Below, piece by piece: positions 1 to 11,336 of a DNA stretch of 64,000 nt. The translations under genes and the position numbers were made by a program. Position 1 is the stretch's first letter. The number at the start of each line of letters is the position of its first letter. The notes under the pieces are model-generated. The model had not been told where the DNA came from. It saw nothing but the letters and a program-made list of their open reading frames with translations, and did not search any database. The DNA is from Alistipes sp. (GTDB lineage Bacteria; Bacteroidota; Bacteroidia; Bacteroidales; Rikenellaceae): assembly GCA_020026335.1 (NCBI GenBank), contig JAHHQO010000009.1, forward strand, positions 35,286 through 99,285, given 5' to 3'.

Positions 1-1622
1 TTAAGATGCTTCATAAATTTTCGATTTAAATAGACATATTGTTTTGCATACTCTAATAAATTGTTAAATTCCTGAGTCTTTGTTTGATCTTCCTGACTTT
101 CTGTCCTTAACTGCATAGCATAATTATCTGAAGCATCTTTTATTTCTTTATATACCATAGCCTCCATTTCACTATAACGATAAACCTTCTGCAGCATAGT
201 AATAAGTTCTTCTATCGTTATATTCTGCTCTTTTACAAATGGATTTCGACTCAACACCTCTTTTATTTCGAGCAAAGCCGTGATGTGTGCATCTTTTTTG
301 TCTTTGCCATATCTGATTATATCACGGTTTTCTTCTTGAGGTACAAACCCTGTAATAATGTTTTGTTTAACGGCTTTAAAAACCAATAAACGTCCAATTT
401 GAGATGTAGCATTTAATTTATCTTCGATAGATTTAATATCTTCAACAGTTTGAATTAATTGTGTAATATCACTTTTTAATTTAGCCAAACTCGCATTTAC
501 TCTATTAACGACCTCTTTATTATCCGGAAATAAACTTCGGATAATATCAATATCTTCAATATTATGTCCTTCATCATCTCCTACCACTTTCATAATATAA
601 TTTTGTCCGAGATAATGAGGATGTATTCCCGATGGATTAACAACATTTAAATTCTCAACACCAAAACCATTATAATGAGAATCCTCAAAACTAGTATGAG
701 ACAATTTACGCCAAACCGAATCAACTAATAGAGTTTTACCGCTCGAAGAGCCTCCAATAACAACATTTAACCCAGAACAAAATTTTACATCTATATCAAG
801 TTTATCATTGGAATATTTTACACAATCAATATTCTCAGACCAAGATTCAGGTTTCTGTATACAATATACCAAACGCGATTTCTCTGATAATGAAAGACGG
901 AAACCTTCAAATGTCGGCTGAGAAAACATCCAAGTTGGAATAAGAGATTCTGCATCTTTCGATTTTGCGTTTGGATAGCAACTAGGCACATAATTATCGG
1001 AACAAGTAACAAGATTCACAAACCCACTAATTCCAAGACGTTTAAAATAGTTATCAGTTTCTTCACGACCACTATCGCTTCTTGCAGTAAAACCATCAAA
1101 TTGATTATAATAAACGCTACGCTCCATCATTGTGTCGAACTTCTTCCCTGTTGGTATAGCTTTATCGAATGTTGCATGCGACTGCCCACCATGAGGGAGA
1201 AGAACAAAATCGTATGAATCAAACTCATTGATTATTTTGTCTAGAGTGGGAATGTTTTTGTCTTTCTTTTCAACAGTCTTTCGTATATATAGACTATTAA
1301 GAATATTATTTATTTCATCTATTTTTTGTTCAGAGATGTCATCCTTGAAAAATATATGGCAATGATAAGCTTCTGTATCTATCGAATAATGGACATGTAG
1401 TTCCACACCAAGCAATAAATGTATATCCGTCCCACACTTCGCTATAGCATCAAGATATGCTTTCCTATTTATTGTATTGTGATCTGTAAGAGAAATAAGT
1501 GCATGTTGTCCCTGTGCATGTTCCCTTACTTTTGAAAACAATGTATCTATATCATAATTCTGATTTAGACTATCAGGATTCTCAGATGTATGAATATGTA
1601 CATCTAAATAAACTGGCTCCAT
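1..1622 (-). CDS. PHP-domain / P-loop (ABC-SMC-like) ATPase fusion, partial (C-terminus beyond left edge); Ppl(PplA)-like candidate anti-phage defence protein
   Basis: Not in the supplied ORF track because it runs off the edge. Hand translation of the minus strand from ATG 1622-1620 gives 540 sense codons with no stop down to nt 3; the upstream in-frame stop is at 1671-1673. N-terminal motifs MEPVYLDVHIHTSENPD, LTDHN and LPHGGQSH are PHP-type metal ligands. Walker A GGSSSGKT is at aa 290-297 (nt 732-755). A K/E/I/L-rich coiled-coil-like stretch follows (aa ~380-540). Confidence 0.75.
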   Translation of the reverse strand, partial: MEPVYLDVHIHTSENPDSLNQNYDIDTLFSKVREHAQGQHALISLTDHNTINRKAYLDAIAKCGTDIHLLLGVELHVHYSIDTEAYHCHIFFKDDISEQKIDEINNILNSLYIRKTVEKKDKNIPTLDKIINEFDSYDFVLLPHGGQSHATFDKAIPTGKKFDTMMERSVYYNQFDGFTARSDSGREETDNYFKRLGISGFVNLVTCSDNYVPSCYPNAKSKDAESLIPTWMFSQPTFEGFRLSLSEKSRLVYCIQKPESWSENIDCVKYSNDKLDIDVKFCSGLNVVIGGSSSGKTLLVDSVWRKLSHTSFEDSHYNGFGVENLNVVNPSGIHPHYLGQNYIMKVVGDDEGHNIEDIDIIRSLFPDNKEVVNRVNASLAKLKSDITQLIQTVEDIKSIEDKLNATSQIGRLLVFKAVKQNIITGFVPQEENRDIIRYGKDKKDAHITALLEIKEVLSRNPFVKEQNITIEELITMLQKVYRYSEMEAMVYKEIKDASDNYAMQLRTESQEDQTKTQEFNNLLEYAKQYVYLNRKFMKHL

Positions 1623-1722
1623 ATTATTGATTATTTCGTTACTTTTGAGTATAAAGATAGTGAAATAAGCCTATTTACGAATATAATTCACTATATATTG
1701 CGTAATATAATTGCATCTAAAA

Positions 1723-1944
1723 ATAAAATTAAATAGAATAAAGGTAGTTTTGTCGGAGAAAGGTATTTAACAGACTTGATTAGCGAAAAGACTGGATAAG
1801 AGTTTCAGTATGGTCAATGCGTATGCTTACAACAGGAACTAGCCTAACTTGAAGACTTTACAGCAAATTGCAGAAATTCTTTAGGTTGACCTGAAAGATT
1901 TGATAACAGATAAAACGAACGATAGAAGTAATGGTGATGGATAA
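1723..1944 (+). pseudogene. XRE-family HTH regulator relic (start codon lost, four in-frame stops, no frameshift)
   Basis: The frame reads (ATA)KLNRIKVVLSEKGI*QT*LAKRLDKSFSMVNAYAYNRN*PNLKTLQQIAEIL*VDLKDLITDKTNDRSNGDG*. This is a full-length small Bacteroidota HTH_3 protein of the 'NRIKVVL..MVNAY..NR.QP' type. Stops are at 1768 TAA, 1777 TGA, 1840 TAG and 1882 TAG. Confidence 0.7.
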
Positions 1945-2430
1945 AATGAAGTACGTAAATAATTCTTTTGTCGCTGATATCGCTGGACGCATTGAACGAT
2001 TAATCACCAATGCACGAACCAATGTTGTGCGAGCAGTCAACTTCACCGAAGTCATTACTAAATATGAAATAGGACATATCATTGTAAATGTCGTACAAGA
2101 AGGTGAAGAACGCGCAGCATATGGTAAACTGTTATTAAAAGGAGTATCTGAGATATTGACAGAACGATTAGGTAGTGGTTGGTCTGTAGATACTTTGAAG
2201 AAATGCTGAACTTTCTACCTCACCTATTCAAAATCCGCAACATCGTCGCGGAATTTAGCGAAGATATACCCTTTTACACTTTCATGGTCGCATTATCTAG
2301 TGCTAATGCGCATTGGATCTAACGAAGAGCACCGCTTCTATGAGATTGAGTGTCAGAAACAGAATTGGAATGGAAGGAATCTAAAGACAGTGAACCTAAA
2401 TGACAATATATTGACATGTTATTGTCAACG
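1931..2430 (+). pseudogene. YhcG/DUF1016 PD-(D/E)XK nuclease relic (in-frame TGA, C-terminal nuclease half missing)
   Basis: Track ORFs 1931-2209 and 2300-2485 share one frame, split by TGA 2207-2209. The sequence ..GWSVDTLKKC*TFYLTY..FTLSWSHYLVLMRIGSNEEHRFYEIECQKQNWNGRNLK matches the DUF1016 N-terminal region (NL..MR.FY, LSWSHY, FYE...NWS.R.L). Similarity fades at about nt 2390-2430. Confidence 0.65.
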
Positions 2431-2682
2431 AACCATGAATAAGAATAAACTCTTTCTCTTGATTCGTGAACCTGTATATTCATGAGCGAACTCTACCAAA
2501 CTGTTTGCGTCTATTAGTGAAACACATTTCAACTCAATTCAGAAGGATGAAACATCCTGAGCAAAAACTCTTTTTTATACTATTCCAGAGGATTTTCAAA
2601 CATGTTGTATTTTGCACAAACAAATCCAACATACCCCCTTCTGAAAGCACCAGAGAGGCACATACAAGACTACTTAAAACCA

Positions 2683-2729
2683 CAAAAAATCAGCGGGACA
2701 AACAAATAAACGTTGTCTGTCCCGCTGAT
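2683..2729 (-). terminator. rho-independent terminator of the DUF2795 gene
   Basis: Hairpin ATCAGCGGGACA..TGTCCCGCTGAT (12 bp, then one mismatch, then 4 bp) at 2689-2729. The plus-strand A-run 2684-2689 gives a T-run on the minus strand. Confidence 0.8.
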
Positions 2730-2758
2730 ACTTAATAACTTATCCTATTATTAGGCCA

Positions 2759-2980
2759 TTAATATTCTTCTTCATTGAAGAAGAAATCGTCTTTGGAAGG
2801 ATAGTCGGGCCAAATGTCCTCGATAGATTCGTAGATCTCACCTTCATCCTCAATTTCCTGCAAATTCTCGAGCACTTCGAGAGGTGCACCCGAACGAACA
2901 GCATAGTCAATAAGTTCGTCCTTTGAAGCAGGCCATGGTGCATCTTCAAGTTTCGATGCTAATTCAAGCGTCCAGTACAT
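2759..2980 (-). CDS. DUF2795 domain-containing protein
   Basis: 73 aa. WPASKDELIDYAVRSGAPLEVLENLQEI is typical of DUF2795. Confidence 0.8.
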   Translation of the reverse strand: MYWTLELASKLEDAPWPASKDELIDYAVRSGAPLEVLENLQEIEDEGEIYESIEDIWPDYPSKDDFFFNEEEY

Positions 2981-3139
2981 AGCTGTAATATAGGTTTAAA
3001 GTTGTTATTTTCAGTGTATTAAACTCGGTTGGGAGCTTAAATCACTCCTAAACGGACTGCAAAAATAAAAAGAATTATTAAATAAACAACTTTATTTCTA
3101 TAAAAAACGTATTGTAGAACAATTTTACGGCAATATACA

Positions 3140-3691
3140 TTAAGGTATCCAGAGCGTCTCCTCCACATGATAGTGGGCGGTGAGCTTGCGACTCAACACA
3201 TAGAGATAGTCCGAAAGACGATTAATCCACGCCATGGTATTACCGTCCACGGGGTGCTCGTCTTCGATACGAAGGGCGGCACGCTCGGCGCGGCGACATA
3301 CCGTACGACAGAGGTTGCAGTACGACACGCGAACATCTCCTCCCGGAATAGTGAACTTGTCGATGGTGGGGAGCTGAGCCTGCATGGCGTCAATCTTCTC
3401 CTCCAGCCATTTGACCGAAGCCGCATCCATGGGCTGGATTTTCTCCGAACCGCGCTCTCCACATGCCAAAATCGCCTGTACGTTCATCAGTCGCGATGCT
3501 ATGGTGTTCAACTCCTCGACACACTCTTTGAGGGTGTCGTCACCGCGCAGATAGTCGGTCAGCAGCGCAATGTGTGCCGACAATTCGTCTACCGTCCCAT
3601 AGGCTTCCACGCGCAAATCGGTCTTGAAAACACGTTCGCCACCGATGAGCGAGGTCATGCCTTTATCGCCTCCCTTGGTGTAGATTTTCAT
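3140..3691 (-). CDS. ATP:cob(I)alamin adenosyltransferase, PduO type
   Basis: MKIYTKGGDKGMTSL..EAYGTVDELSAHIALL is the PduO-type signature. A 4-nt overlap with the upstream gene suggests an operon. Confidence 0.9.
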   Translation of the reverse strand: MKIYTKGGDKGMTSLIGGERVFKTDLRVEAYGTVDELSAHIALLTDYLRGDDTLKECVEELNTIASRLMNVQAILACGERGSEKIQPMDAASVKWLEEKIDAMQAQLPTIDKFTIPGGDVRVSYCNLCRTVCRRAERAALRIEDEHPVDGNTMAWINRLSDYLYVLSRKLTAHYHVEETLWIP

Positions 3692-4200
3692 ATCTTGAAA
3701 TGTTGTTTGGGCAGATGATTGTTAAATATCAACAAGTATCCTCTGTTATCCACCGTCGTGCAGGTGTGCTCGCAGACAATCTGTCTGCACATCTGCTCGC
3801 GCTCGTTGTCCTGTGCCGGGTCCATGATGACCAGCGTCTTCTTCTCGTTGCGCGCCAGATTCACCTTTTCGAGGGTCTCCGCCGTGGAGAGTCGTCGGGT
3901 CAGCACACACATCTCGGCATTGCAGTCGTCGATGTCGAAGGTGGTGTAGCCGTTGTGGAGTGCCAGATTTTGCAGCTGTATGGCTCTTTTCTGATGCACA
4001 CCGCTTCGCAATAACTCCTCATAGAGACGGTGTTCGCCTTCCATGAGGGTCGAACGCATGAATACCTCCCTGACTATGGCATAGACAAAGGGGGAGTGTA
4101 CGCCGTGCCCTCTGAAATAGCGGGCTCGCGAGAGTCGGTCACCGAGGTGCGAGACTTTGTTTTTGAGTTCGTCCTTGATATGTATATTCGAAAAATCCAT
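3688..4200 (-). CDS. conserved hypothetical protein (methyltransferase-like N-terminal 'GVHSPFVY' motif)
   Basis: 170-aa ORF, translationally coupled between the oxidoreductase and the PduO-type gene. Function not recognisable. Confidence 0.6.
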   Translation of the reverse strand: MDFSNIHIKDELKNKVSHLGDRLSRARYFRGHGVHSPFVYAIVREVFMRSTLMEGEHRLYEELLRSGVHQKRAIQLQNLALHNGYTTFDIDDCNAEMCVLTRRLSTAETLEKVNLARNEKKTLVIMDPAQDNEREQMCRQIVCEHTCTTVDNRGYLLIFNNHLPKQHFKI

Positions 4201-4202
4201 TT

Positions 4203-5489
4203 TTACTTCTTCAACAAACCTGCCAAACGTCCGGTCGAGAAGGCAATTTGAAGATTGTATCCGCCGGTGTTGGCATCCAAATCCAATACCTCACCTGCAA
4301 AATAGAGACCTTTCACCTTGAGAGACTCCATGGTGTAGGGATTCACTTCGTTACAATTGACACCGCCGGCTGTGGTCACGGCATACTCGAAGGGTGCGTA
4401 ATCCACGATGGGGAAGGTCAGACCCTTCAGCGTGCGAATCAGTCGGGTGATTTCCGCCTCGGTTAGCTTCGAGATGTAGTTCTTCGAGTGGATGTCCAAC
4501 TCCTGAGCCAGAGGCATGACCAGAGGTTTCGGGACGAGCTTGCGCAGCAACTCGCCGAAGAACTCCGTCGGCTCCATCTCCGCCATTTCGCGGGCGATAC
4601 GGTCGCGGAGAATCTCCTCCGTGAGGGCGGGTTTGAGGTCGATGACCAGCTTTACCTTCTTGCCATCAATGAGTGCATCGACAGCATCACGACTCACACG
4701 CAGTGCCACGGCACCTTCGATACCGCGGTTCGAAAAGCCGATTTCACCGAACTCCTCTCTTACCGGCTCATTGTCGATATAGAGGGTGGCGCGGATGTTT
4801 CTCAACAGCAGACGCTCGAGATATTTCATCTGGGGATGTGAGGTCACCAGCGGAGTGAGCGAGGGACGCAGGGGTTCGATGGTGTGGCCCAGGTCGGCGG
4901 CAAAGGCATAGCCGTCACCTGTCGAACCCGTACCGGGGTACGACACACCGCCTGTGGCGAGGATAATCTGCGAGCACTCCTCCTTGCGCACGAATCCGCG
5001 CTTGTTGATGTAGTGGAGTCCGAAGATTTTGTCGCCGAGGGTCATGATGTCCTTTACGCGCGTATTATATAGTATCTTCACGCCGTTCTCCACGCAGTAG
5101 TCCAACAGGGCGTTGGCGATGTCCCACGCCTTGCCGCTCTTGGGGAATACGCGGTCACCGCGCTCGATGTCGAGTTTTACACCGCGACGCTCGAAGAAAC
5201 GGATGGTCGCCTTGTTGTTGAACTCGGCAAAGGCCTGCTTGAAAAAGTCGGCATTGGTTCTCACCTGTGATGCAAACTCCTCGGCAGGGCGGGCGTTGGT
5301 GACATTGCATCGACCCTTACCGGTGATGCGCACCTTGCGACCCGATTTCTCCATCTTTTCGAGCAGCAAAACCTTCTTTCCGCTCTGTGCGGCAGTACCG
5401 GCCGCCATCATGCCGGCAGCACCGGCTCCTATCACTATGACATCGTAAGCTACGGGCTCGACGATATCTTTTTCTTCTATTTGTTCCAT
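4203..5489 (-). CDS. NAD(P)/FAD-dependent oxidoreductase, HI0933/YhiN (BaiN-like) family
   Basis: YDVIVIGAGAAGMMAAG dinucleotide fold, GKGRCNVTN, and a C-terminal GGYNLQ.AF.TG motif. Confidence 0.88.
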   Translation of the reverse strand: MEQIEEKDIVEPVAYDVIVIGAGAAGMMAAGTAAQSGKKVLLLEKMEKSGRKVRITGKGRCNVTNARPAEEFASQVRTNADFFKQAFAEFNNKATIRFFERRGVKLDIERGDRVFPKSGKAWDIANALLDYCVENGVKILYNTRVKDIMTLGDKIFGLHYINKRGFVRKEECSQIILATGGVSYPGTGSTGDGYAFAADLGHTIEPLRPSLTPLVTSHPQMKYLERLLLRNIRATLYIDNEPVREEFGEIGFSNRGIEGAVALRVSRDAVDALIDGKKVKLVIDLKPALTEEILRDRIAREMAEMEPTEFFGELLRKLVPKPLVMPLAQELDIHSKNYISKLTEAEITRLIRTLKGLTFPIVDYAPFEYAVTTAGGVNCNEVNPYTMESLKVKGLYFAGEVLDLDANTGGYNLQIAFSTGRLAGLLKK

Positions 5490-5496
5490 ATGGGTG

Positions 5497-5504
5497 CAAA
5501 GATA
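5497..5504 (-). promoter_or_regulatory. Bacteroides-type -7 box (TATCTTTG on minus strand) for the 5489-3140 operon
   Basis: Plus-strand CAAAGATA. Only 7 nt separate the box from ATG 5489, so the mRNA would be near-leaderless. Confidence 0.4.
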
Positions 5505-5536
5505 GCTAAATATTTATTCTTTATAGAAATTTTTTC

Positions 5537-5544
5537 TATCTTTG
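5537..5544 (+). promoter_or_regulatory. -7 box TATCTTTG upstream of nusB
   Basis: Exact TAnnTTTG, 25 nt before ATG 5570. Confidence 0.5.
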
Positions 5545-5569
5545 CGACCGATAAAACGTTCTAAAAAAT

Positions 5570-6505
5570 ATGTTGAGCAGAAGATTACTTCGTACAAAGG
5601 TTATTAAGGCACTTTTTTCGCACATCAAGTCGGGTGCCGATAACATGATGGCATCGGAAAAGAACCTTATGGCATCGGTAGATAAGGCGTATGACCTCTA
5701 TTTCCAAATTTTAATCCTTCCCGTGGAGATTGTTAACTACGCCGTGCAGCGTCAGGAGCTGGCAAAAGCGAAGATACTGCCCACATTCGAGGATTTGAAC
5801 CCCAACACAAAATTTGTAGAAAACTCCGTGATTCGTGTCATTGCCAACAGTGACTCGGTCAACGACTATGTGGCAGCACGCAAGCTGGGCTGGGAGCAGC
5901 AGTCGGACTTCATCCGTGCGCTCTATACCCGTATGTGTGACAGCCAGTATTATAAGGATTACATGGCGCGTCAGGAGCGTTCGTTCGAGGACGACCGTCA
6001 CCTGCTGGAGGAGTTCTTCAAGGATATCCAGGACTTCGAGTTGCTGGACGAGGTGCTCGAGGAGATGTCTATCCTTTGGAACGACGATTTGTCGTATGCC
6101 GTGATGATGATTCTGCGCACCCTCTCGTCGCTGCGTCCCTCGCACACCGAGTTGAAGGTGATGTCGAAGTACAAGAGCCAGGAGGACCCCGAGTTTGTGA
6201 AGACCCTCTTCGAGAAGGCACTCGTGTCGTACAACGACAATCAGGAGTATATCGAGAAGTTCACATCGAACTGGGACGTAGAACGTATTGTCTTCATGGA
6301 TAACCTCATCATCGGCACCGCTATGGCAGAGTTGATTTCCTTCCCCTCGATTCCCGTGAAGGTAACCCTCGACGAGTGGATTGAGATTTCGAAGTATTAT
6401 TCGACTCCCGGAAGTAGCAACTTCATCAACGGCGTGCTCGACAAGATGGTGGATGCTCTGACCAAGGAGGGCCGCATCAAAAAGGCAGGTCGCGGTCTGA
6501 TTTAA
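5570..6505 (+). CDS. nusB: transcription antitermination factor NusB (long Bacteroidota form)
   Basis: LLR.KV..ALF at the N-terminus, C-terminal YSTPGSSNFINGVLDK, and nusB-DUF1573-yajC synteny. Confidence 0.9.
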   Translation: MLSRRLLRTKVIKALFSHIKSGADNMMASEKNLMASVDKAYDLYFQILILPVEIVNYAVQRQELAKAKILPTFEDLNPNTKFVENSVIRVIANSDSVNDYVAARKLGWEQQSDFIRALYTRMCDSQYYKDYMARQERSFEDDRHLLEEFFKDIQDFELLDEVLEEMSILWNDDLSYAVMMILRTLSSLRPSHTELKVMSKYKSQEDPEFVKTLFEKALVSYNDNQEYIEKFTSNWDVERIVFMDNLIIGTAMAELISFPSIPVKVTLDEWIEISKYYSTPGSSNFINGVLDKMVDALTKEGRIKKAGRGLI

Positions 6506-6517
6506 TTTCGCGTGACG

Positions 6518-6940
6518 ATGTGGCGGACAGGTGTGGCAGTGGCATTGGTGTTGCTGTCGGTGGCGTGCGGTGGCGGTAGAAAGACGACCCGCAACGGTGC
6601 GCATGGCGGTCGGGTGATTGCGCTGACGGACTCTGCGCTGATGACGGGTGTGATTGACACCCTGGGTTTTGGCAATATGTCGTCGGGCGAGATGGCTGTC
6701 AAGGAGGTGTGGTTGGAGAACCGCACTTCGCGTCCGTTGGTCATCTCGCAGTTGAAACGCAACTGCGGATGTGTGACGATGGACTACGAGACCCGTCCGT
6801 TCCTTCGGGGCGAACAACTCAAATTGCAGGTGACCTTCGACTCGCGTGGCGAGTGGGGTTGGCAATTGAAAGTGGCGGATGTCTATTTTGCAGGCTTTGA
6901 CAAGGCTTTGCGCCTCTATGTCGATGCAGATATCCGCTAA
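6518..6940 (+). CDS. DUF1573 domain-containing lipoprotein
   Basis: Signal peptide with LLSVAC lipobox. NCGCV motif. Conserved position between nusB and yajC. I prefer ATG 6518 over GTG 6512. Confidence 0.8.
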   Translation: MWRTGVAVALVLLSVACGGGRKTTRNGAHGGRVIALTDSALMTGVIDTLGFGNMSSGEMAVKEVWLENRTSRPLVISQLKRNCGCVTMDYETRPFLRGEQLKLQVTFDSRGEWGWQLKVADVYFAGFDKALRLYVDADIR

Positions 6941-6965
6941 AGGTTGCAGAATAATTTAAATTTAT

Positions 6966-6973
6966 TATCTTTG
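6966..6973 (+). promoter_or_regulatory. -7 box TATCTTTG upstream of yajC
   Basis: Exact TAnnTTTG, 33 nt before ATG 7007. Confidence 0.45.
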
Positions 6974-7006
6974 TAACCAAAATTAAATCCTAAAACAAAA
7001 AAGACT

Positions 7007-7330
7007 ATGTTTAATTTACTTCAAGCAGCAGATAGTGTTCCCGTAAATCCGGGTGAGCCTCAGGCAAACTACAGCTTTTTCATCATGATTGCACTCATGG
7101 TTTTGGTTTTGTGGTTGTTCATCTGGCGACCCGAATCGAAGCGCCGTAAGGAGATGCAGCAGTTCCGCGAGGGATTGAAGAAGGGTGACAAGATTATCAC
7201 CGCAGGTGGTATCTATGGTGTCGTAAAGGAGATTAAGGAGAAGACCCTCCTTATCGAGGTTGACGGCAATATCACTCTCCGTATCGACAAGAACATGGTG
7301 GTTGCCGACACTTCTGACCTTCAGAAATAA
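7007..7330 (+). CDS. yajC: preprotein translocase subunit YajC
   Basis: One transmembrane segment, then RPE.KRRKE...L.KGD.I.T.GGI.G.V. Confidence 0.92.
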   Translation: MFNLLQAADSVPVNPGEPQANYSFFIMIALMVLVLWLFIWRPESKRRKEMQQFREGLKKGDKIITAGGIYGVVKEIKEKTLLIEVDGNITLRIDKNMVVADTSDLQK

Positions 7331-7450
7331 AACGCTTTCTGACAGATGGGGCAATATGGCCCTGCACTGTTGAGTGAGATAGAGATAGTTTCTGTATTTT
7401 CGTAACACAGAAGCTATCTTTTTTATGGTACCTGACACCCATTGCCCGAT

Positions 7451-8515
7451 ATGAATATATGTTTTTTTGTTGCGGAATATGTCTCTCCGACAAGAGGAGG
7501 TGTCGAGAAGATGACCTGCGCTCTCTATGAGGCGTTGAGCCGTCAGGGACACGAGGTGTTTATTGTCTCCTACTTTCCTCCCAAAACGGAGGAGGAACGA
7601 AATGATGACCCTCATTTCATGGTATTGCCTTCCGATGATGTGCTGAGTGAGCAGAATTACAGCTTCTTGAAGGAGATACTGACAAAAAACGCCATTCAAA
7701 TTGTGGTGAACCAGACCCCCAATCGAGCGCTGCTGTCTCAGTTGTGGGCACTGAAGCAGGAAGTAGGGTATCAGGTGGTAACGGTGTGTCATACCGACCC
7801 CCAAGGTGAATTGAAGGGGTTGATCGACCGATACGACCACATTGCGTGGCAGACTGCCGATGTTGTACGGCGTACTGTTCGCCAACTCCTTTTCAGAGTG
7901 CAGTGGCCGGTGAAGAGTTTCTTGCGCCATCGCAAACTGCGCAAAATCTATCAATTCTTTGTCGGCCATTCCGACCGCTACGTTTTACTGTCCCCCTCCT
8001 ATGTCCAACTCGTGAAAAAAATGTTGGGGAGTAAGGTATACAGGGACAAGGTTTGTTGTATTCCCAACTTTTTGGAGGATGGTAATTTACCGGATGCGGA
8101 GACGCTGTCATGCAAGAAGAAACAGGTATTATTTGTCGGACGCATGGATTTTCAGAAGCGACTCGACCGTATGCTCCGTATTTGGAGTCGGGTAGAGTGC
8201 TCGGTGGAAGATTGGGAGTTGATTGTTGTGGGCGAGGGCGACTGCAAGGAGCAGATGGAGAGCTATGCCCGTCATCTGGGACTCTGCAATTGCCGTTTTG
8301 TCGGCAGGGTGCGCGCCACGGACTATATGCAGACTGCTTCGGCTGTTTGCCTGACCAGCTCCCACGAGGGTTTCGGCATGGTCCTGCTGGAAGCTTTGCG
8401 TCATGCCTGTGTGCCTTTTGCATTCGATAGTTTCGAGTCTGCACGCGATATAATTGAAAAGGACAGAAACGGAGTGCTGGTTCCTCCTTTCAGCGAGGAG
8501 GAGTATGCTGTGTAA
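7451..8515 (+). CDS. glycosyltransferase family 4 (GT-B); ends at a TAA after which the family-like C-terminus continues in frame to 8653
   Basis: N-terminal GGVEK, then SSHEGFGMVLLEA (E..G motif). The ATG is at 7451 (the track start 7442 is TTG). See the finding on the premature stop. Confidence 0.8.
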   Translation: MNICFFVAEYVSPTRGGVEKMTCALYEALSRQGHEVFIVSYFPPKTEEERNDDPHFMVLPSDDVLSEQNYSFLKEILTKNAIQIVVNQTPNRALLSQLWALKQEVGYQVVTVCHTDPQGELKGLIDRYDHIAWQTADVVRRTVRQLLFRVQWPVKSFLRHRKLRKIYQFFVGHSDRYVLLSPSYVQLVKKMLGSKVYRDKVCCIPNFLEDGNLPDAETLSCKKKQVLFVGRMDFQKRLDRMLRIWSRVECSVEDWELIVVGEGDCKEQMESYARHLGLCNCRFVGRVRATDYMQTASAVCLTSSHEGFGMVLLEALRHACVPFAFDSFESARDIIEKDRNGVLVPPFSEEEYAV

Positions 8516-8751
8516 CTGGTCAAATTCATGCAAGACGAAGCCCTGCAACAGCGAATGTTCCGCTACATTGTCGACCACCCTTCGGAGCGTTTTACGCAGA
8601 CCATTGTGGTGGAGCAGTGGCAGAGACTCTTCGGTGAACTGGCGAAGCTGTGATGTGCGGCAGAGAGTGTGGCATCAGGTGAAAACAGTGATTTATCCTT
8701 ATGAAATGATTAAGGATAATGGCCGTATTTTTTTTGTGAACGGCTTTTTAT

Positions 8752-8759
8752 TATCTTTG
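8752..8759 (+). promoter_or_regulatory. -7 box TATCTTTG upstream of obg
   Basis: Exact TAnnTTTG, 21 nt before ATG 8781. Confidence 0.5.
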
Positions 8760-8780
8760 CACCAAAATTAATACAGACTA

Positions 8781-9797
8781 ATGGCAGGTTCTAACTTCGT
8801 AGATTACGTTAAGATATTTGCCCGTTCGGGGCATGGCGGTGGTGGCTCGGCTCACTTCCGCAGAGAGAAATTTGTGGCATTCGGCGGTCCCGATGGTGGT
8901 GACGGCGGTAAAGGTGGCAGTATCATTTTGCAGGGTGACCGCCAGTATTGGACGCTCATCCACTTGAAGTATCAGCGTCACCAGTTTGCCGAGAACGGCC
9001 AGAATGGTTCGGGCGCACGTTCGTCGGGTAAGGATGCCAAGGATATTATCATTCCCGTGCCCCTCGGTACGGTCGCCAAGCGTGTGATTGAGAACGAGGA
9101 CGGCACAACAACCATCGAACCTGTTGGTGAGGTGACTGCCGACGGCGAGCAGCTCGTGCTGTTGCAGGGCGGTCGTGGCGGTTTGGGTAACTGGCATTTC
9201 AAGAGTGCCACCAACCAAACTCCCCGTTACGCACAGCCCGGTGAGGAGGGTGATGAGGGTGCTTTCATTCTGGAGTTGAAGGTGCTGGCCGATGTAGGTC
9301 TGGTGGGCTTCCCCAATGCAGGTAAGTCAACCCTGCTGTCGGTGGTATCGGCTGCGAAGCCCAAGATTGCCAACTACGCATTCACCACGCTGGAGCCTAA
9401 CCTTGGTATCGTGGAGACACGTAACCACAAATCGTTCGTCATGGCCGACATCCCCGGTATCATCGAGGGCGCACACGAGGGTAAGGGTCTCGGAACCCGT
9501 TTCCTGCGCCATATCGAGCGTAACTCGGTATTGCTGTTCATGGTGCCTGCCGACAGTGACGATGTGAAAAAGGATTACGAAATCCTGCTGGGCGAGCTGA
9601 CACAGTATAACCCCGAGTTGCTGGACAAGCAGCGTCTGCTGGCCATCACCAAGTGCGATATGCTGGACGACGAACTGATTGAGGCGATGAAGGAACACTT
9701 GCCGGAGGGAATTCCCGCCGTCTTCATTTCATCGGTTTCGGGCTTGGGTATCACCCAGCTCAAGGATATGTTGTGGAATGCACTTCAAGAGGAGTAA
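8781..9797 (+). CDS. obg: GTPase ObgE/CgtA
   Basis: FVDYVKI..RSGHGG.G..HFRREK. Glycine-rich Obg fold. [10 protein letters not shown]1 motif. Confidence 0.95.
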
Positions 9798-10563
9798 ATA
9801 ACTCGGTTTCGAAATTGGAGATACGTATGGTGTATCTGCCGTTGAAGAAATCCAAAATACCATAGAGAGAGCCGTTGCCTTCGGGTAGCGGCTCTTTTGC
9901 GTAATGACACGACCACAGGGTGCGAACGATGATGGAGTCTCCGCCACGCTCTTTCAATACGTGTTCCGTGGTGATGTGTCGTCCGCTTTCGGGGTCGATG
10001 GCACACCATTTGGCAGGGCTTGCGAAGTGCACATCGTCCAATGCAATGTAGGTATCTACATCGCGTGGTGTCAGCTCCGCAATTCTGCGGTGATGGGGTA
10101 TGCGGTGGTCTGTGGTGCTGTCGTCTACCTTGATGTGGAGGTCGAGTTCCGAGCGCGGAATGAAAAAATCATCTCCGTCTCCGACCTTACCCAACACTAC
10201 TTTGCCGCCGTAGTCCATCAGTGTGAGCCCGTTGCAGAGTACGGAAACCGTACTTCCGATTTTGTAACGGAGGGGCGATTTTGACGGATAGTCGGCATTG
10301 ATGGTGATGCCTGCCGTGGCGTCCTGTATGACCAGTGAACGGTAAAATTCGCCATAGCGGTTGTTACCCGTGACGGTGCCACGGACGATGATGTGCTCGG
10401 TGATGGGGTAGTGCGAGTCGGCGCACAACGATTTGAGATAGAGAATCGAGGAGATGGTTTCCTTGTCATTGTCGCCATCGCCGTGCAGGGTCGAGGTTTT
10501 GCTACAAGAGAGCAGAAGCAGTGCCGACAGCAGCGACACGAAGCGGTGAAAGTTGACAATCAT
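9760..10563 (-). CDS. DUF5689 domain-containing lipoprotein (paralog 2)
   Basis: Signal peptide with LLLSC lipobox. [28 protein letters not shown] matches the DUF5689 OB-like core. Confidence 0.8.
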
Positions 10564-11335
10564 TTTTATCTCTTAATTTTATGCTGAAACACTCCTCGCC
10601 TGCGATGTTCTCGTATTGCAGAATACCTGTCAGACTACATTGCCCTTCGGGAATCTCCTGCTGAGCAAAACGTGCGTAGCGGCGTACAAAAGTGTGAATG
10701 GAGCGACCATCCGTGTCTACGAAACGCTTGTCACCGACCCATGTGCGGTCGATCGCTTCTCCTTCAACGGGCGGAAGCGGCGAGAACCGTACTCCGCTGA
10801 CACGAACCAGCTGACCGCATAACCCTTCGTGAAGTTCCGCCACGGAGACCTCCAAAGGGGTGATTTCCTCGGCCTGCGTGGTCGCGCGACAGATGATTTT
10901 GTCGAGGGTGGCTGCCGTCGAAGCCAAATAATCCACCCTGTAACCACTGCCGCTCAACGGAGGTCGTCCGACCTGTATCGTTCCGCGACTCTTGCAGAGT
11001 TTCAGCCCTTGCAGACGGAGTGTGAGGTCGGTACCCTCGGGGTAGGAATTGTGCAGATGATTCAATCCTGCCATGACCTCCAACGCAGCGTCACCGTCCT
11101 GAATAAAGAGGGTGCGGTAGAAATTCTCTCCGCGGTCATCGGTCGAGACCCGTCCTCTGACGACAATGTCACCCTTTATCATCATCTCCTCGCTCACCAG
11201 CTCATCGCGCAGTTGTGCAAGGGTATAATTCACCACAGCATTCCCCTCGCCGGGTGTCCGCTCCGAAAAAGAGGTGTCATAACACCCTGCGAAGAGCAGT
11301 GTGGCAAGCAGGCCGAGACGAAGCGGAAGAAGCAT
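10502..11335 (-). CDS. DUF5689 domain-containing lipoprotein (paralog 1)
   Basis: LLFAGC lipobox. TLAQLR...I.VRGRVSTDDRGENFYRTLFIQDGDAAL. Its 3' end overlaps the next gene by 62 nt. Confidence 0.8.
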   Translation of the reverse strand: MLLPLRLGLLATLLFAGCYDTSFSERTPGEGNAVVNYTLAQLRDELVSEEMMIKGDIVVRGRVSTDDRGENFYRTLFIQDGDAALEVMAGLNHLHNSYPEGTDLTLRLQGLKLCKSRGTIQVGRPPLSGSGYRVDYLASTAATLDKIICRATTQAEEITPLEVSVAELHEGLCGQLVRVSGVRFSPLPPVEGEAIDRTWVGDKRFVDTDGRSIHTFVRRYARFAQQEIPEGQCSLTGILQYENIAGEECFSIKLRDKNDCQLSPLRVAAVGTASALL

Positions 11336-11336
11336 A

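What the first reader, a model, noticed from the sequence alone, without database searches (positions are those of the whole stretch)
1..1622. Unlisted 540-codon ORF at the left edge: PHP + P-loop/coiled-coil ATPase, a Ppl-like defence candidate
The minus strand is open from ATG 1622 to the window edge, and the ORF track omits it. Its domain order is as follows: PHP phosphoesterase ligand motifs (DVHIHT, LTDHN, HGG.SH), then a Walker A loop (GGSSSGKT) about 290 aa in, then a long charged heptad-like stretch typical of the coiled-coil insertion in SMC/Rad50/OLD-type ABC ATPases. From memory, this is the architecture reported for the single-gene Ppl system (Gao et al. 2020; 'Gao_Ppl' in DefenseFinder) and for proteins RefSeq labels TrlF-family AAA-like ATPases. 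The gene sits in an AT-rich block beside two dead genes (an XRE regulator and a YhcG nuclease), which is a defence-island-like context. The C-terminal half and any partner genes lie outside the window, so the system may be larger than what is visible.
Basis: partly seen in the sequence, partly recalled or inferred. Interest (0 to 1): 0.7.

Follow-up and report, generated by a model that had tools for sequence, protein, structure and literature searches.

The report
PHP–ABC ATPase defence-island gene fragment
The left edge of the window holds the first 70% of a real gene for a metal-dependent nuclease-type domain fused to a Rad50/SMC-like ATPase; it is a distant cousin of the known anti-phage protein Ppl, always travels with a tiny uncharacterised partner gene, and sits in a horizontally acquired defence island of a gut Bacteroidales bacterium.

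Summary
Window 1622→1 (minus strand) is an open 540-codon frame in a 31–39% GC block, next to a dead XRE gene and a truncated YhcG gene.

The architecture call is also right. The N-terminal 262 aa fold as a PHP phosphoesterase, and the rest is an SMC/Rad50-type ABC head with a helical coiled-coil insert.

The family label is only partly right. Full-length relatives are 774 aa and form a discrete Bacteroidales clade. They score below the curated cut-offs of all three named families:
- TrlF: 189–212 bits against 350.
- Spaf_1101: 96–114 bits against 475.
- Ppl: 61–77 bits against 1000, over the C-terminal ~130 aa only.

The system is not single-gene. An orphan acidic 76-aa ORF follows the ATPase stop, usually after 1 nt, in 14 of 14 related loci.

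The neighbourhoods are mobile defence islands carrying R-M systems, GmrSD, an Hhe-like gene, relaxases and integrases. In one related element a CBASS cassette occupies the same slot.

The visible part of the window's copy looks functional: dN/dS is about 0.1 and 118 of 118 invariant residues are kept. Codons 541–690 were not recovered.

The most likely function is a nucleotide-gated, DNA-end-directed nuclease used in defence, working like Ppl. This is a new variant of a known kind and of moderate interest.

The parts
1..1622 (-). First 540 of about 774 codons of the PHP–ABC ATPase gene. The ATG is at 1620–1622 and the 3' part lies off the window.
   Evidence: Open frame. Homologues of 774 aa at up to 90% identity. 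dN/dS 0.09–0.13. All 118 family-invariant columns covered by the fragment are kept.
837..1622 (-). PHP-fold phosphoesterase domain (aa 1–262). Ligand motifs are D7/H9/H11, D47/H48, E74(/H76), H87(/H89), H144(/H149) and D209-N-Y211.
   Evidence: AlphaFold model of this stretch has pLDDT 81 and pTM 0.83. The top 11 Foldseek PDB hits are all PHP enzymes, E 8.5e-7 to 6e-4. The profile against PDB sequences gives 9etk at 1.7e-4 and PolC 3f2b at 7e-4.
576..836 (-). N-terminal lobe of the ABC ATPase head (aa 263–349). Contains Walker A GGSSSGKT (aa 290–297, nt 732–755) and the Q-loop Q340.
   Evidence: Sequence. Invariant columns. Alignment to Rad50 Walker A. Foldseek matches to SMC, Rad50 and RecN heads.
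1..575 (-). Helical coiled-coil insert of the ABC head (aa ~350–540 of an insert that runs to ~545). The C-terminal lobe with the signature, Walker B and H-loop motifs is off the window.
   Evidence: The model of P0001 (90% identical) shows long helices at 369–405 and 466–544. Relatives carry S648-A-G-W, I-D673-Q-P-E-D and H706.
1623..1722 (.). Divergent intergenic region between the ATPase gene and the XRE pseudogene. It presumably holds the promoters and operators. It contains short imperfect inverted repeats.
   Evidence: Repeats found. Similarity to most related loci ends at about 1624, so the regulatory region and regulator are exchangeable. A functional role was not tested.
1723..1929 (+). 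XRE/HTH_3 regulator pseudogene: start codon lost and four in-frame stops.
   Evidence: Translation. 86% identical to the intact 67-aa HTH of L002, which matches HTH_3 and HTH_26. An intact copy sits in L028.
1931..2660 (+). YhcG/DUF1016 nuclease pseudogene: a 92-aa N-terminal ORF at 1931–2209 followed by out-of-frame, truncated remains. It marks the right-hand end of the island.
   Evidence: DUF1016_N 47 bits. PADLOC PDC-S02 75 bits. The identical 92-aa ORF occurs in L028. The core-genome match to island-free strains stops at window ~2660–2673.

Best explanation
**What it is.** The ORF is the 5' 70% of a gene for a ~774-aa enzyme with two parts. The first is an N-terminal PHP-fold, metal-dependent phosphoesterase, probably a nuclease. 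The second is an SMC/Rad50-type ABC ATPase head split by a ~200-aa antiparallel coiled coil.

**Where it belongs.** It falls in a discrete clade restricted to Bacteroidales within the TrlF/Spaf_1101/Ppl superfamily. The hallmark of that superfamily is the Walker B motif I-D-Q-P-E-D, in which Gln replaces the usual catalytic Glu.

**What it travels with.** A tightly abutting, orphan, acidic 76-aa protein gene follows it, so the unit is a two-gene cassette. An exchangeable XRE regulator usually sits upstream and faces the other way. The cassette rides in horizontally transferred defence islands and mobilisable elements. Here it sits in an Alistipes-like genome, at a junction where other strains carry different DNA.

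**Proposed mechanism (inferred by analogy with E. coli Ppl).**
1. The ABC head binds NTP and, lacking the catalytic Glu, holds it instead of cycling quickly. It therefore reports nucleotide levels and keeps the enzyme closed.
2. When infection depletes NTPs and exposes DNA ends, the coiled-coil head engages the DNA.
3. The PHP domain then degrades the DNA from its ends.
4. The 76-aa partner is most likely a stoichiometric regulator, either an inhibitor acting as a safety catch or a sensor adaptor.

**Shown versus inferred.** Shown: the folds, the motifs, the clade, the partner linkage, the context and the purifying selection. Inferred: the defence role (about 0.7), Ppl-like nucleotide gating and exonuclease activity (about 0.4), and the partner's role (a guess).
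For: **Architecture**
- PHP fold for the window's own N-terminal domain.
- SMC/Rad50/RecN/JetC/AriA-type head for the rest.
- Invariant ligand, Walker A, signature, Walker B and H-loop residues.

**Superfamily and clade**
- The TrlF, Spaf_1101 and Ppl models all hit, but all below their cut-offs.
- The representative search shows a tight clade of about 15 full-length 50%-identity clusters at 740–940 bits, then a gap to 180 bits or less.
- Bona fide TrlF proteins score 542–617 bits on the TrlF model.
- IDQPED is invariant across the sampled superfamily.

**Partner gene**
- Present immediately downstream in all 13 related loci, plus L111.
- dN/dS 0.09–0.21, pI 4.5–5.2, and a stop–1 nt–ATG junction in most loci.
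- No Pfam, PADLOC or PDB relative.

**Defence and mobile context**
- DpnII and type I R-M, GmrSD, integrase, Mob_Pre and DUF3987.
- PIN_12, relaxase, Fic and a type II restriction enzyme.
- An Hhe-like 1832-aa gene 1.5 kb beyond the partner in L111.
- A type I CBASS cassette in the same XRE–YhcG slot in L028.
- A distant relative sits directly after BrxL, and TrlF sits inside a type I R-M operon.

**Foreign origin**
- 31–39% GC against 50–55% in the host.
- The host's Obg is 90% identical to the Alistipes finegoldii protein, while the cassette's relatives are in Prevotella, Hoylesella, Parabacteroides and Bacteroidaceae.
- The flanking site is variable between strains.

**Integrity of this copy**
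- dN/dS about 0.1 and 118 of 118 invariant residues kept.
- An intact 3' end and partner gene in a contig from the same sample.
- The partner variant P0279 and the window's Obg and 428-aa protein are each listed on a 104,673-nt contig.

**Ppl mechanism**
- The review PMC12904381 and PMC13434339, which cites Xu et al., Mol Cell 2026.
Against: - There is no experimental datum for this clade.
- Similarity to Ppl itself is confined to the conserved C-terminal ABC lobe.
- The last PHP metal-ligand motif is SDNY here instead of SDNH as in TrlF and other relatives. The active site is therefore altered and could be weakened or have a different specificity.
- Pfam's PHP model does not detect the domain at all.
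- In Photorhabdus, no phenotype mapped to TrlF itself, so even the nearest named family has no demonstrated activity.
- In this genome the regulator and the adjacent nuclease gene are dead, and codons 541–690 were not seen. This particular copy may be silent or broken.
- Relatives are often inactivated, by frameshift in L004–L006 and by IS insertion in L014.
Confidence: 0.6

Rival explanations
1. It is a bona fide single-gene Ppl system (Gao_Ppl).
For: The domain order is the same, PHP then an NTPase with a helical insert. The PADLOC and NCBIfam Ppl models give significant E-values (1e-17 to 1e-22) on full-length relatives.
Against: Scores are 58–77 bits against an NCBIfam cut-off of 1000 and cover only the last ~130 aa. 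The PHP domain and coiled coil do not align to the Ppl models. The protein is about 110 aa shorter (774 aa against model lengths of 882–894). A conserved second gene is always present. TrlF is the better hit.
Confidence: 0.04
2. It is a TrlF-type component of a 'temperature restriction locus'-like growth-arrest module, working with a TrlG (AlbA_2 + HATPase_c_4) partner.
For: TrlF is the best-scoring named family. The IDQPED motif and PHP motifs are shared with bona fide TrlF. One locus, L011, has an AlbA_2 + HATPase_c_4 gene two genes upstream.
Against: Scores are below the TrlF cut-off (189–212 bits against 350). The protein is about 170 aa shorter than the 944-position TrlF model. No TrlG-like gene is adjacent in any of the clade's loci, and none is present at all in 13 of the 14. 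The conserved neighbour is instead the 76-aa orphan. In Photorhabdus the phenotype mapped to TrlG, not TrlF.
Confidence: 0.07
3. It is primarily a toxin–antitoxin or addiction module that stabilises the mobile element. The PHP-ATPase is a DNA-damaging toxin and the acidic 76-aa protein is its antitoxin. Any phage defence would be secondary, through abortive infection.
For: There is a small, acidic, tightly abutting partner. The cassette sits on mobilisable elements with relaxase, integrase and Mob genes. An XRE regulator lies upstream. The large gene is often inactivated, as expected for a costly or toxic gene. There are weak AAA_21 hits ('AbiEii toxin'; 25–27 bits against a cut-off of 27, one relative just reaching it).
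Against: The small gene lies downstream, not upstream as is usual for type II antitoxins. In the frameshifted and IS-disrupted alleles the partner is still intact, so nothing points to the antitoxin being the selected part. The slot is shared with CBASS and surrounded by R-M, GmrSD and Hhe-like genes, which points to defence cargo. This rival overlaps with the best explanation and is not exclusive of it.
Confidence: 0.15
4. In this particular genome the gene is an inactive remnant of a decaying island, either silent or truncated beyond the window.
For: Both right-hand neighbours are pseudogenes, including the presumed regulator. The 234 C-terminal codons are off the window, and codons 541–690 could not be recovered. 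Decay is common in relatives.
Against: 540 codons remain open in 32% GC DNA. dN/dS is about 0.1 against nine relatives, and none of the 118 invariant residues is lost. A contig from the same sample carries an intact 3' end (last 84 codons with the H-loop) and an intact partner gene at the same allele divergence. Loss of a repressor would de-repress the operon, not silence it.
Confidence: 0.15
5. It is a housekeeping SbcCD/Rad50–Mre11-like DNA repair nuclease with PHP replacing Mre11.
For: The head is Rad50/SMC-like with a coiled coil. PHP domains serve as proofreading exonucleases in DnaE1, PolC and PolX, and these enzymes are among the structural matches.
Against: Distribution is patchy and strain-variable, composition is foreign, the context is always a mobile element or defence island, the slot is exchangeable with CBASS, and the gene is often pseudogenised. 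There is no conserved synteny with repair genes.
Confidence: 0.03

Closest known systems
TrlF family AAA-like ATPase (NCBIfam NF045780), named after trlF of the Photorhabdus laumondii temperature restriction locus trlR–trlF–trlG
   Same: Best-scoring named family. End-to-end collinear architecture of PHP, ABC head and coiled-coil insert. Shares the PHP ligands D/H-x-H, DH, E, H, H and SDN-, the Walker A motif, the invariant I-D-Q-P-E-D Walker B and the H-loop. Found in defence contexts, for example inside a type I R-M operon on an IncC plasmid.
   Different: About 22% identity. Scores 189–212 bits against a cut-off of 350, while true TrlF proteins score 542–617. About 170 aa shorter than the 944-position model. 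No adjacent TrlG (AlbA_2 + HATPase_c_4) partner, and a 76-aa orphan partner instead. The last PHP motif is SDNY, not SDNH. Restricted to Bacteroidales, whereas TrlF is mostly proteobacterial.
Ppl, the single-gene anti-phage system (Gao et al. 2020; mechanism in Xu et al., Mol Cell 2026, as summarised in PMC12904381 and cited in PMC13434339)
   Same: The same two-domain logic: a PHP exonuclease plus an NTPase. The C-terminal ABC lobe is recognisably homologous (58–77 bits). Defence-island setting. It is the only member of the superfamily with a published mechanism: an NTP-inhibited ssDNA 3'–5' exonuclease that senses 3'-OH ends.
   Different: The Ppl models match only the last ~130 aa and reach under 8% of the curated cut-off (1000 bits). 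About 110 aa shorter. A two-gene rather than a single-gene unit. No experimental data exist for this clade. Whether Ppl itself carries DQPED could not be checked here because no Ppl sequence was in hand.
Spaf_1101 family AAA-like ATPase (NCBIfam NF045781)
   Same: A third named branch of the same superfamily. It aligns over nearly the full length (for example residues 45–768 to profile positions 111–833).
   Different: Scores 96–114 bits against a cut-off of 475, so the relationship is more distant than to TrlF.
Unnamed ~790–860-aa PHP–ABC ATPases (for example P0177 and P0180, and the viral-contig loci L037, L091 and L095)
   Same: The next-nearest relatives, at 120–180 bits to the clade profile and collinear end to end. 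They are also below the TrlF cut-off (219–293 bits). Three of the nine loci examined have a 96–100-aa ORF abutting or overlapping the ATPase stop codon. One sits directly after BrxL.
   Different: About 21–24% identity. Their small downstream ORFs show no detectable homology to the 76-aa partner (hhalign probability 0.4%). They keep the SDNH motif.
Rad50–Mre11 / SbcCD, and SMC-like defence ATPases (Wadjet JetC, Lamassu LmuB, PARIS AriA, Gabija GajA)
   Same: The ABC head with a coiled-coil insert is the best structural match (E 5e-8 to 1e-4). The general logic is an ABC/SMC-like sensor coupled to a nuclease.
   Different: Here the nuclease is a PHP domain fused in cis, instead of a separate Mre11, Toprim or Cap4 subunit. 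The coiled coil is short (~200 aa) with no CxxC zinc hook among the invariant residues. Walker B has Gln in place of the catalytic Glu. Sequence matches to GajA and LmuB are limited to the P-loop.

Membership tests
Ppl (NCBIfam NF042955 'anti-phage protein Ppl'; PADLOC PDLC02208) | Full-length match to the family model above the curated cut-off (1000 bits for NF042955) | tested here: not met
   Six full-length relatives score 61.6–77.4 bits. The matched stretch is only residues ~634–765 against profile positions 754–880 of 882. PADLOC Ppl scores 58.7–68.3 bits, also C-terminal only. The window fragment itself gives no Ppl hit.
Ppl (NCBIfam NF042955 'anti-phage protein Ppl'; PADLOC PDLC02208) | Single-gene system | tested here: not met
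   A conserved 76-aa ORF follows the ATPase stop, after 1 nt in most loci, in 14 of 14 loci of the clade.
Ppl (NCBIfam NF042955 'anti-phage protein Ppl'; PADLOC PDLC02208) | PHP domain with ssDNA 3'–5' exonuclease activity inhibited by NTPs, and protection against phage | not testable with these tools
   This needs biochemistry and phage assays. Only the PHP fold and the ligand motifs were shown.
TrlF family (NCBIfam NF045780, equivalog) | Score at or above the curated cut-off of 350 bits | tested here: not met
   The window fragment scores 76.9 bits and full-length relatives score 189–212 bits. Positive controls P0256 and P0269 score 617 and 542 bits.
TrlF family (NCBIfam NF045780, equivalog) | Operon partner TrlG (AlbA_2 + HATPase_c_4), as in Photorhabdus and on enterobacterial plasmids | tested here: not met
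   tblastn with the plasmid TrlG against L001–L028 gives one weak hit, in L011 two genes upstream, and none in the other loci. The Pfam calls for the neighbours agree.
Spaf_1101 family (NCBIfam NF045781) | Score at or above the curated cut-off of 475 bits | tested here: not met
   96–114 bits.
TrlF/Spaf_1101/Ppl superfamily of PHP–ABC ATPases (informal grouping) | Collinear PHP domain and ABC head with a helical insert, plus the invariant I-D-Q-P-E-D Walker B and conserved C-terminal lobe | tested here: met
   The end-to-end alignment with TrlF and intermediate proteins has D7, H9, H11, D47, H48, E74, H87, H144, D209, N210, G290, K296, S648, G650, I672–D677 and H706 invariant. All three family models give significant sub-threshold hits. 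For the window's own copy only the first 540 residues could be checked.
PHP (polymerase and histidinol phosphatase) fold superfamily | Distorted (βα)7 barrel fold | tested here: met
   The model of window aa 1–262 (pLDDT 81, pTM 0.83) matches only PHP enzymes at E ≤ 6e-4: 3e0f, 7ug9, 4iqj, 7pu7, 9etk, 7rty, 2yb1 and 3f2b, with TM 0.42–0.58.
PHP (polymerase and histidinol phosphatase) fold superfamily | Complete set of metal ligands (HxH, DH, E, H, H, DxH) | tested here: inconclusive
   HxH, DH, E, H87, H144 and D209 are invariant, but the final His of the DxH motif is Tyr (SDNY) throughout the clade. The clade-specific H76, H89 and H149 are invariant and might compensate. Mapping to the canonical ligands rests on the alignments and on my recollection of the PolX ligand set.
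PHP (polymerase and histidinol phosphatase) fold superfamily | Match to Pfam PF02811 above its gathering score | tested here: not met
   No PF02811 hit at E ≤ 1 on the fragment or at E ≤ 0.1 on six full-length relatives. There are only weak CehA/McbA metallohydrolase hits (E about 1e-3).
SMC/Rad50/RecN-type ABC ATPases | Bipartite head (Walker A in the N-lobe; signature, Walker B, D-loop and H-loop in the C-lobe) separated by an antiparallel coiled coil | tested here: met
   Foldseek gives 51 PDB hits at E ≤ 1e-3, nearly all of them SMC, Rad50, RecN, RecF, JetC or AriA heads. The motifs are and the helices. Pfam SMC_N spans 276–721 but at 17–28 bits, below its cut-off of 40. The C-lobe was seen only in relatives and in L111, not in the window.
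SMC/Rad50/RecN-type ABC ATPases | Catalytic Glu directly after the Walker B Asp | tested here: not met
   Invariant Gln674 aligns with the Glu of Rad50's 'DE'. This holds for every member of the PHP–ABC superfamily sampled.
Defence-island cargo (operational criterion) | Recurrent linkage to known defence and mobility genes, in variable genomic positions, with foreign composition | tested here: met
   The neighbours include R-M systems, GmrSD, PIN_12, an Hhe-like gene, integrases, relaxases and Mob genes. A CBASS cassette occupies the same slot in L028. GC is 31–39% against 50–55%. The flanking site differs between strains.

The most novel reading that the evidence does not exclude
The cassette is an undescribed two-component defence system of gut Bacteroidales. 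A PHP nuclease is fused to an SMC-like head that is naturally 'E→Q locked' (Walker B DQPED), so it reads nucleotide levels or DNA ends instead of working as a motor. It is gated by a dedicated orphan 76-aa acidic protein, which acts as an inhibitor or DNA mimic, or as an infection sensor. The altered PHP site (SDNY plus three extra invariant His) gives it a substrate or metal specificity different from Ppl and TrlF.
Probability: 0.3. Interest if true: 0.6.

Novelty: new variant of a known kind. Interest (0 to 1): 0.42.

Why it matters
PHP–ABC ATPases are a large class of defence-island proteins that has been little studied. The representative search found 6,255 clusters at E ≤ 1e-3, though many of the weaker ones may match only the ABC ATPase part. 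Only Ppl has a published mechanism.

This Bacteroidales clade matters for three reasons.
- It shows the scaffold has diversified into discrete lineages with different partners: none for Ppl, TrlG for TrlF, and a 76-aa orphan here.
- It is invisible to the current PADLOC and NCBIfam thresholds, so defence inventories of gut Bacteroidales under-count it.
- It offers a compact two-gene unit for testing how a small protein controls a nuclease–ATPase fusion.

For annotating this window, the practical result is that the left edge belongs to a horizontally acquired defence island at a strain-variable junction. The gene should be named as a TrlF/Ppl-superfamily PHP–ABC ATPase, not as Ppl.

Tried and rejected
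- **Pfam and single-sequence PDB searches on the fragment.** There were no PHP or ABC hits. The PHP call needed a superfamily profile and a domain-only model. The first full-length model was poor over aa 145–262.
- **Recovering the missing C-terminus.**
  - Exact look-ups of the window's neighbouring proteins returned contigs that break just past the DUF2795 gene.
  - One metagenome scan found nothing.
  - The second scan found L028, which turned out to carry a CBASS cassette instead of the ATPase.
  - Only the last 84 codons and the partner were recovered, through P0279.
  - The 104,673-nt source contig itself could not be fetched.
- **tRNA as integration target.** No tRNA gene lies in 1–8000.
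- **TrlG-type partner in the clade.** None is adjacent.
- **Homology of the 76-aa partner.** It shows no detectable relationship to the small ORFs downstream of distant relatives (hhalign probability 0.4%). It also has no match in Pfam, PADLOC or PDB chains.
- **Phase variation as the cause of the common frameshifted allele.** Rejected, because the change is a TT→TTT insertion and not a long homopolymer.
- **Clade members on sequenced plasmids, phages or viral contigs.** None were found. Only TrlF-like or more distant relatives appeared.
- **Literature.** Nothing in the held library describes this clade or its partner. The ABC ATPase classification of Krishnan et al. 2020 is not held, so a prior mention there cannot be excluded.
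- **Walker B Gln as a clade novelty.** Rejected, because it is shared by every superfamily member sampled, including TrlF.


Full report
**1. Observation**

The minus strand from 1622 to the window edge translates into 540 codons without a stop. The ORF lister skips it only because it ignores frames that run off an end of the source.

The first 3 kb are 31–39% GC. The remaining 61 kb are mostly 50–55%, with a few stretches down to about 44%. In DNA this AT-rich, about 7.5% of random codons are stops, so an open run of 540 codons cannot be chance (my arithmetic).

- The XRE gene at 1723–1929 has ATA in place of ATG and four in-frame stops. It is 86% identical to an intact 67-aa HTH_3 protein in L002.
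- The YhcG gene survives as a 92-aa DUF1016_N fragment at 1931–2209 with out-of-frame remains behind it.

**2. What the protein is**

Homologues are abundant. 1,366 clusters have E ≤ 1e-3, the best is 90% identical, and almost all full-length ones are 770–794 aa. The window therefore shows about 70% of the protein.

In an alignment of 34 full-length relatives the invariant columns fall into clear groups:
- a PHP-type ligand set: D7, H9, H11, D47, H48, E74, H76, H87, H89, H144, H149, D209;
- Walker A: G290–T297;
- a Q-loop: Q340;
- a signature motif: S648-A-G-W;
- the Walker B region: I-D673-Q-P-E-D;
- an H-loop: H706.

Pfam does not see a PHP domain at all, and the SMC_N, AAA_21 and AAA_23 hits are marginal. 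I therefore tested the folds directly.

A full-length model (pLDDT 75.7) matches SMC, Rad50, RecN, JetC and AriA heads with their coiled-coil inserts, with a best E of 5e-8 and 51 hits at E ≤ 1e-3.

For the window's own first 262 residues I built a model with a superfamily-wide alignment (pLDDT 81, pTM 0.83). Its 11 significant PDB matches are all PHP enzymes:
- BAD_1165;
- RNase AM;
- the Pol III α and DnaE1 PHP domains;
- PsfC;
- Cv1693;
- PolC.

A sequence profile of the domain also finds PHP proteins first (9etk at 1.7e-4, PolC at 7e-4). The architecture call is correct.

**3. Family placement**

NCBIfam gives three related hits on full-length relatives:
- TrlF: 189–212 bits (cut-off 350);
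- Spaf_1101: 96–114 bits (cut-off 475);
- Ppl: 61–77 bits (cut-off 1000).

The Ppl match covers only the last ~130 residues, and PADLOC's Ppl model behaves the same way. The fragment alone gives 76.9 bits to TrlF and nothing to Ppl.

A profile search of 1.84 billion representatives shows a tight clade of about 15 full-length 50%-identity clusters, 769–788 aa long, at 740–940 bits. There is then a gap to 180 bits or less for other collinear PHP–ABC ATPases of 775–950 aa. Those next-tier proteins are themselves below the TrlF cut-off, while true TrlF controls score 542–617 bits.

The gene therefore belongs to the TrlF/Spaf_1101/Ppl superfamily but to none of its named families.

Two sequence details stand out.
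- The Walker B motif is I-D-Q-P-E-D in every sampled member of the superfamily. Gln sits where Rad50 and SMC proteins have the catalytic Glu. This is the natural equivalent of the E→Q mutants used to trap ABC heads in the nucleotide-bound state (established knowledge).
- The last PHP ligand motif is SDNH in TrlF and the intermediate group but SDNY throughout this clade. The clade also has three extra invariant histidines.

**4. It is a two-gene cassette**

A 76-aa ORF follows the ATPase gene in all 13 related loci (54–100% identity) and in L111. In most loci it starts 1 nt after the ATPase stop, as 'TAG T ATG'. It is acidic (pI 4.5–5.2) and under purifying selection (dN/dS 0.09–0.21).

It has only 52 clusters of homologues, nearly all 76 aa long and unnamed. 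It has no Pfam, PADLOC or PDB relative. Its HMM hits nothing outside the clade's loci.

Bona fide TrlF is paired with TrlG, an AlbA_2 + HATPase_c_4 protein. No such gene is adjacent here.

Three of nine distant relatives have a 96–100-aa ORF in the same position, but without detectable homology.

The upstream divergent HTH gene comes in at least two unrelated types. Similarity between the window and most loci stops at the start codon, so the regulator is exchangeable.

**5. Context**

Related loci carry these genes:
- DpnII-type and type I R-M systems, GmrSD, a tyrosine integrase, Mob_Pre and a DUF3987 protein;
- PIN_12, a relaxase, Fic and a type II restriction enzyme.

The cassette occurs in Prevotella, Hoylesella, Parabacteroides and Bacteroidaceae genomes. 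The window's own Obg is 90% identical to that of Alistipes finegoldii, which implies transfer across families.

The core-genome match to strains lacking the island ends at window ~2660–2673. At that junction other strains carry an integrase element or ordinary genes.

In L028 the same XRE–YhcG flank, with the same 92-aa YhcG stump, is joined to a type I CBASS cassette. Its cyclase scores 430 bits and its SLATT_6 effector 222 bits, and the cassette sits exactly where the ATPase cassette sits here. This is the strongest positional argument for a defence role.

More distantly, a relative sits directly after BrxL (1117 bits). TrlF–TrlG sit inside a type I R-M operon on an IncC plasmid.

**6. State of this copy**

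dN/dS against nine relatives is 0.09–0.13, the same range as between intact relatives. All 118 invariant columns covered by the fragment are kept.

The rest of the gene could not be read from the window. However, sample SRR14298104, whose core contig is 100% identical to the window, also contains a second contig, L111. That contig has several informative features.
- It holds the last 84 codons of an ATPase allele, intact and including the H-loop, at about 92% nucleotide identity to the other alleles. The window's own allele is about 90% identical to them.
- It holds an intact partner gene, P0279.
- It holds an Hhe-like 1832-aa gene (PADLOC Hhe 640 bits, PDC-S37 1489 bits).
- Its GC is 30–40% over 10 kb.

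P0279 and the window's Obg and 428-aa protein are each recorded on a 104,673-nt contig. The cassette is therefore probably complete in the source genome. Codons 541–690, which carry the signature and Walker B motifs, remain unseen.

Inactivated copies exist elsewhere. A +1 T frameshift allele is represented by 122 sequences, and an IS element is inserted in the copy in Prevotella ihumii.

**7. Mechanism**

The only characterised relative is E. coli Ppl. The review PMC12904381 describes it as a ssDNA 3'–5' exonuclease with two key properties.
- NTPs bound to both its PHP and NTPase domains inhibit it.
- It is triggered by NTP depletion together with 3'-OH ends.

PMC13434339 cites the primary paper, Xu et al., Mol Cell 2026.

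The shared scaffold and the Gln-for-Glu Walker B fit a head that senses nucleotide instead of turning it over. I therefore propose the same logic here, with the 76-aa acidic protein as an added regulator.

My estimates are about 0.95 for the architecture and superfamily, about 0.7 for a defence role, and about 0.4 for Ppl-like nucleotide gating with exonuclease activity. The partner's role is a guess.

The main rivals are these:
- an addiction or toxin–antitoxin role for the pair, which overlaps with the best explanation;
- a silent or broken copy in this genome;
- a TrlF/TrlG-type module;
- true Ppl membership, which is effectively refuted;
- housekeeping DNA repair, which is unlikely.

**8. 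Novelty and verdict**

I found no description of this clade or its partner in the held literature. One relevant classification paper could not be read.

This is a new variant of a known kind. It is useful for defence-system inventories of gut Bacteroidales and as a compact test case, but a specialist would not find it surprising. Interest is about 0.4.

Noticed in passing
L028 (RCNI01013029.1) 1–2350; corresponds to window 1650–2218: A related element has the same XRE gene (intact there) and the same 92-aa YhcG stump, 90% identical to the window. It carries a type I CBASS cassette (SMODS cyclase plus SLATT_6 2TM effector) in the slot where the window has the PHP-ATPase cassette. This is a clear case of defence-cassette exchange next to a shared regulator.
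   Followed up: yes
window ~2660–2760 (downstream of the DUF2795 gene at 2759–2980); L016–L027: This junction varies between strains. Several assemblies break within 15–520 nt of the DUF2795 gene. Five contigs have a tyrosine-integrase element there, and two have ordinary genes. No tRNA gene is nearby, so the attachment site is unknown.
   Followed up: partly
L111 2047–7545 (Logan SRR14298104_9549), probably the continuation of the island to the left of the window: An 1832-aa DUF4011 / AAA_11 / AAA_12 / MTES_1575 protein matches PADLOC Hhe (640 bits) and PDC-S37 (1489 bits). It lies 1.5 kb beyond the 76-aa partner, in 30–40% GC DNA that runs for at least 10 kb.
   Followed up: partly
L004–L006 (codon ~389 of the ATPase gene); L014 8633–10001: Inactivated alleles are common. 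A +1 T frameshift (TT→TTT) splits the gene into 396-aa and 391-aa ORFs, and the 396-aa product stands for 122 database sequences. L006 has a further internal rearrangement. In Prevotella ihumii a DDE-transposase IS element interrupts the gene after codon ~51. The partner gene stays intact in all of these.
   Followed up: yes
window 986–994 (codons 210–212 of the ORF, within the C-S-D-N-Y motif); alignments A1 and A2: The final PHP metal-ligand motif is SDNY in all 34 aligned members of the clade, plus three further clade representatives, but SDNH in TrlF and the ~800-aa relatives. H76, H89 and H149 are invariant only in this clade. The consequence for metal binding or substrate is unknown.
   Followed up: partly
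L091 1721–6445 and L095 1129–5874 (IMG/VR contigs); L037 5902–8782: Distant PHP–ABC ATPases (795–858 aa) sit directly after a BrxL gene (1117 bits in L091; the same N-terminus in L095). They are followed by an overlapping or abutting 96–100-aa acidic ORF that is not detectably related to the 76-aa partner. A small downstream ORF may be a recurring but non-homologous feature of this superfamily.
   Followed up: partly
L029 (E. coli IncC plasmid pNDM102337, NC_019045.2 137538–141325): Bona fide TrlF and its TrlG-like 'RNA-binding domain' partner are inserted between hsdR and hsdS/hsdM of a type I R-M operon. tblastn matches to the ATPase occur on 1,022 plasmid records, mostly conjugative Klebsiella and Escherichia plasmids, and nearly all the top-ranked ones are annotated as TrlF.
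   Followed up: partly
L011 (Bacteroidales UBA6851) 2160–12557: The most divergent clade member (70% identical) lies behind two cytosine methyltransferase-like genes (not domain-scanned), a type II restriction-enzyme-like AAA_5 protein, an AlbA_2 + HATPase_c_4 protein with the same architecture as TrlG, and an unknown 718-aa protein. This is the only locus of the clade with a TrlG-like gene nearby.
   Followed up: partly
L008 (UQAQ01000056.1, labelled 'uncultured Roseburia sp.'): A 13.8-kb contig binned as Roseburia (Firmicutes) carries a cassette 99% identical to the Bacteroidales allele P0001, together with a DpnII-type R-M system. This is probably a binning error and not inter-phylum transfer.
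   Followed up: no
window 1723–1929: The XRE pseudogene has accumulated five inactivating changes, a lost start and four nonsense codons, in 69 codons. It is more diverged from L002 (76% nucleotide identity) than the adjacent ATPase gene is (85%). This fits long-standing neutral decay of the regulator while the ATPase gene stayed under selection.
   Followed up: partly
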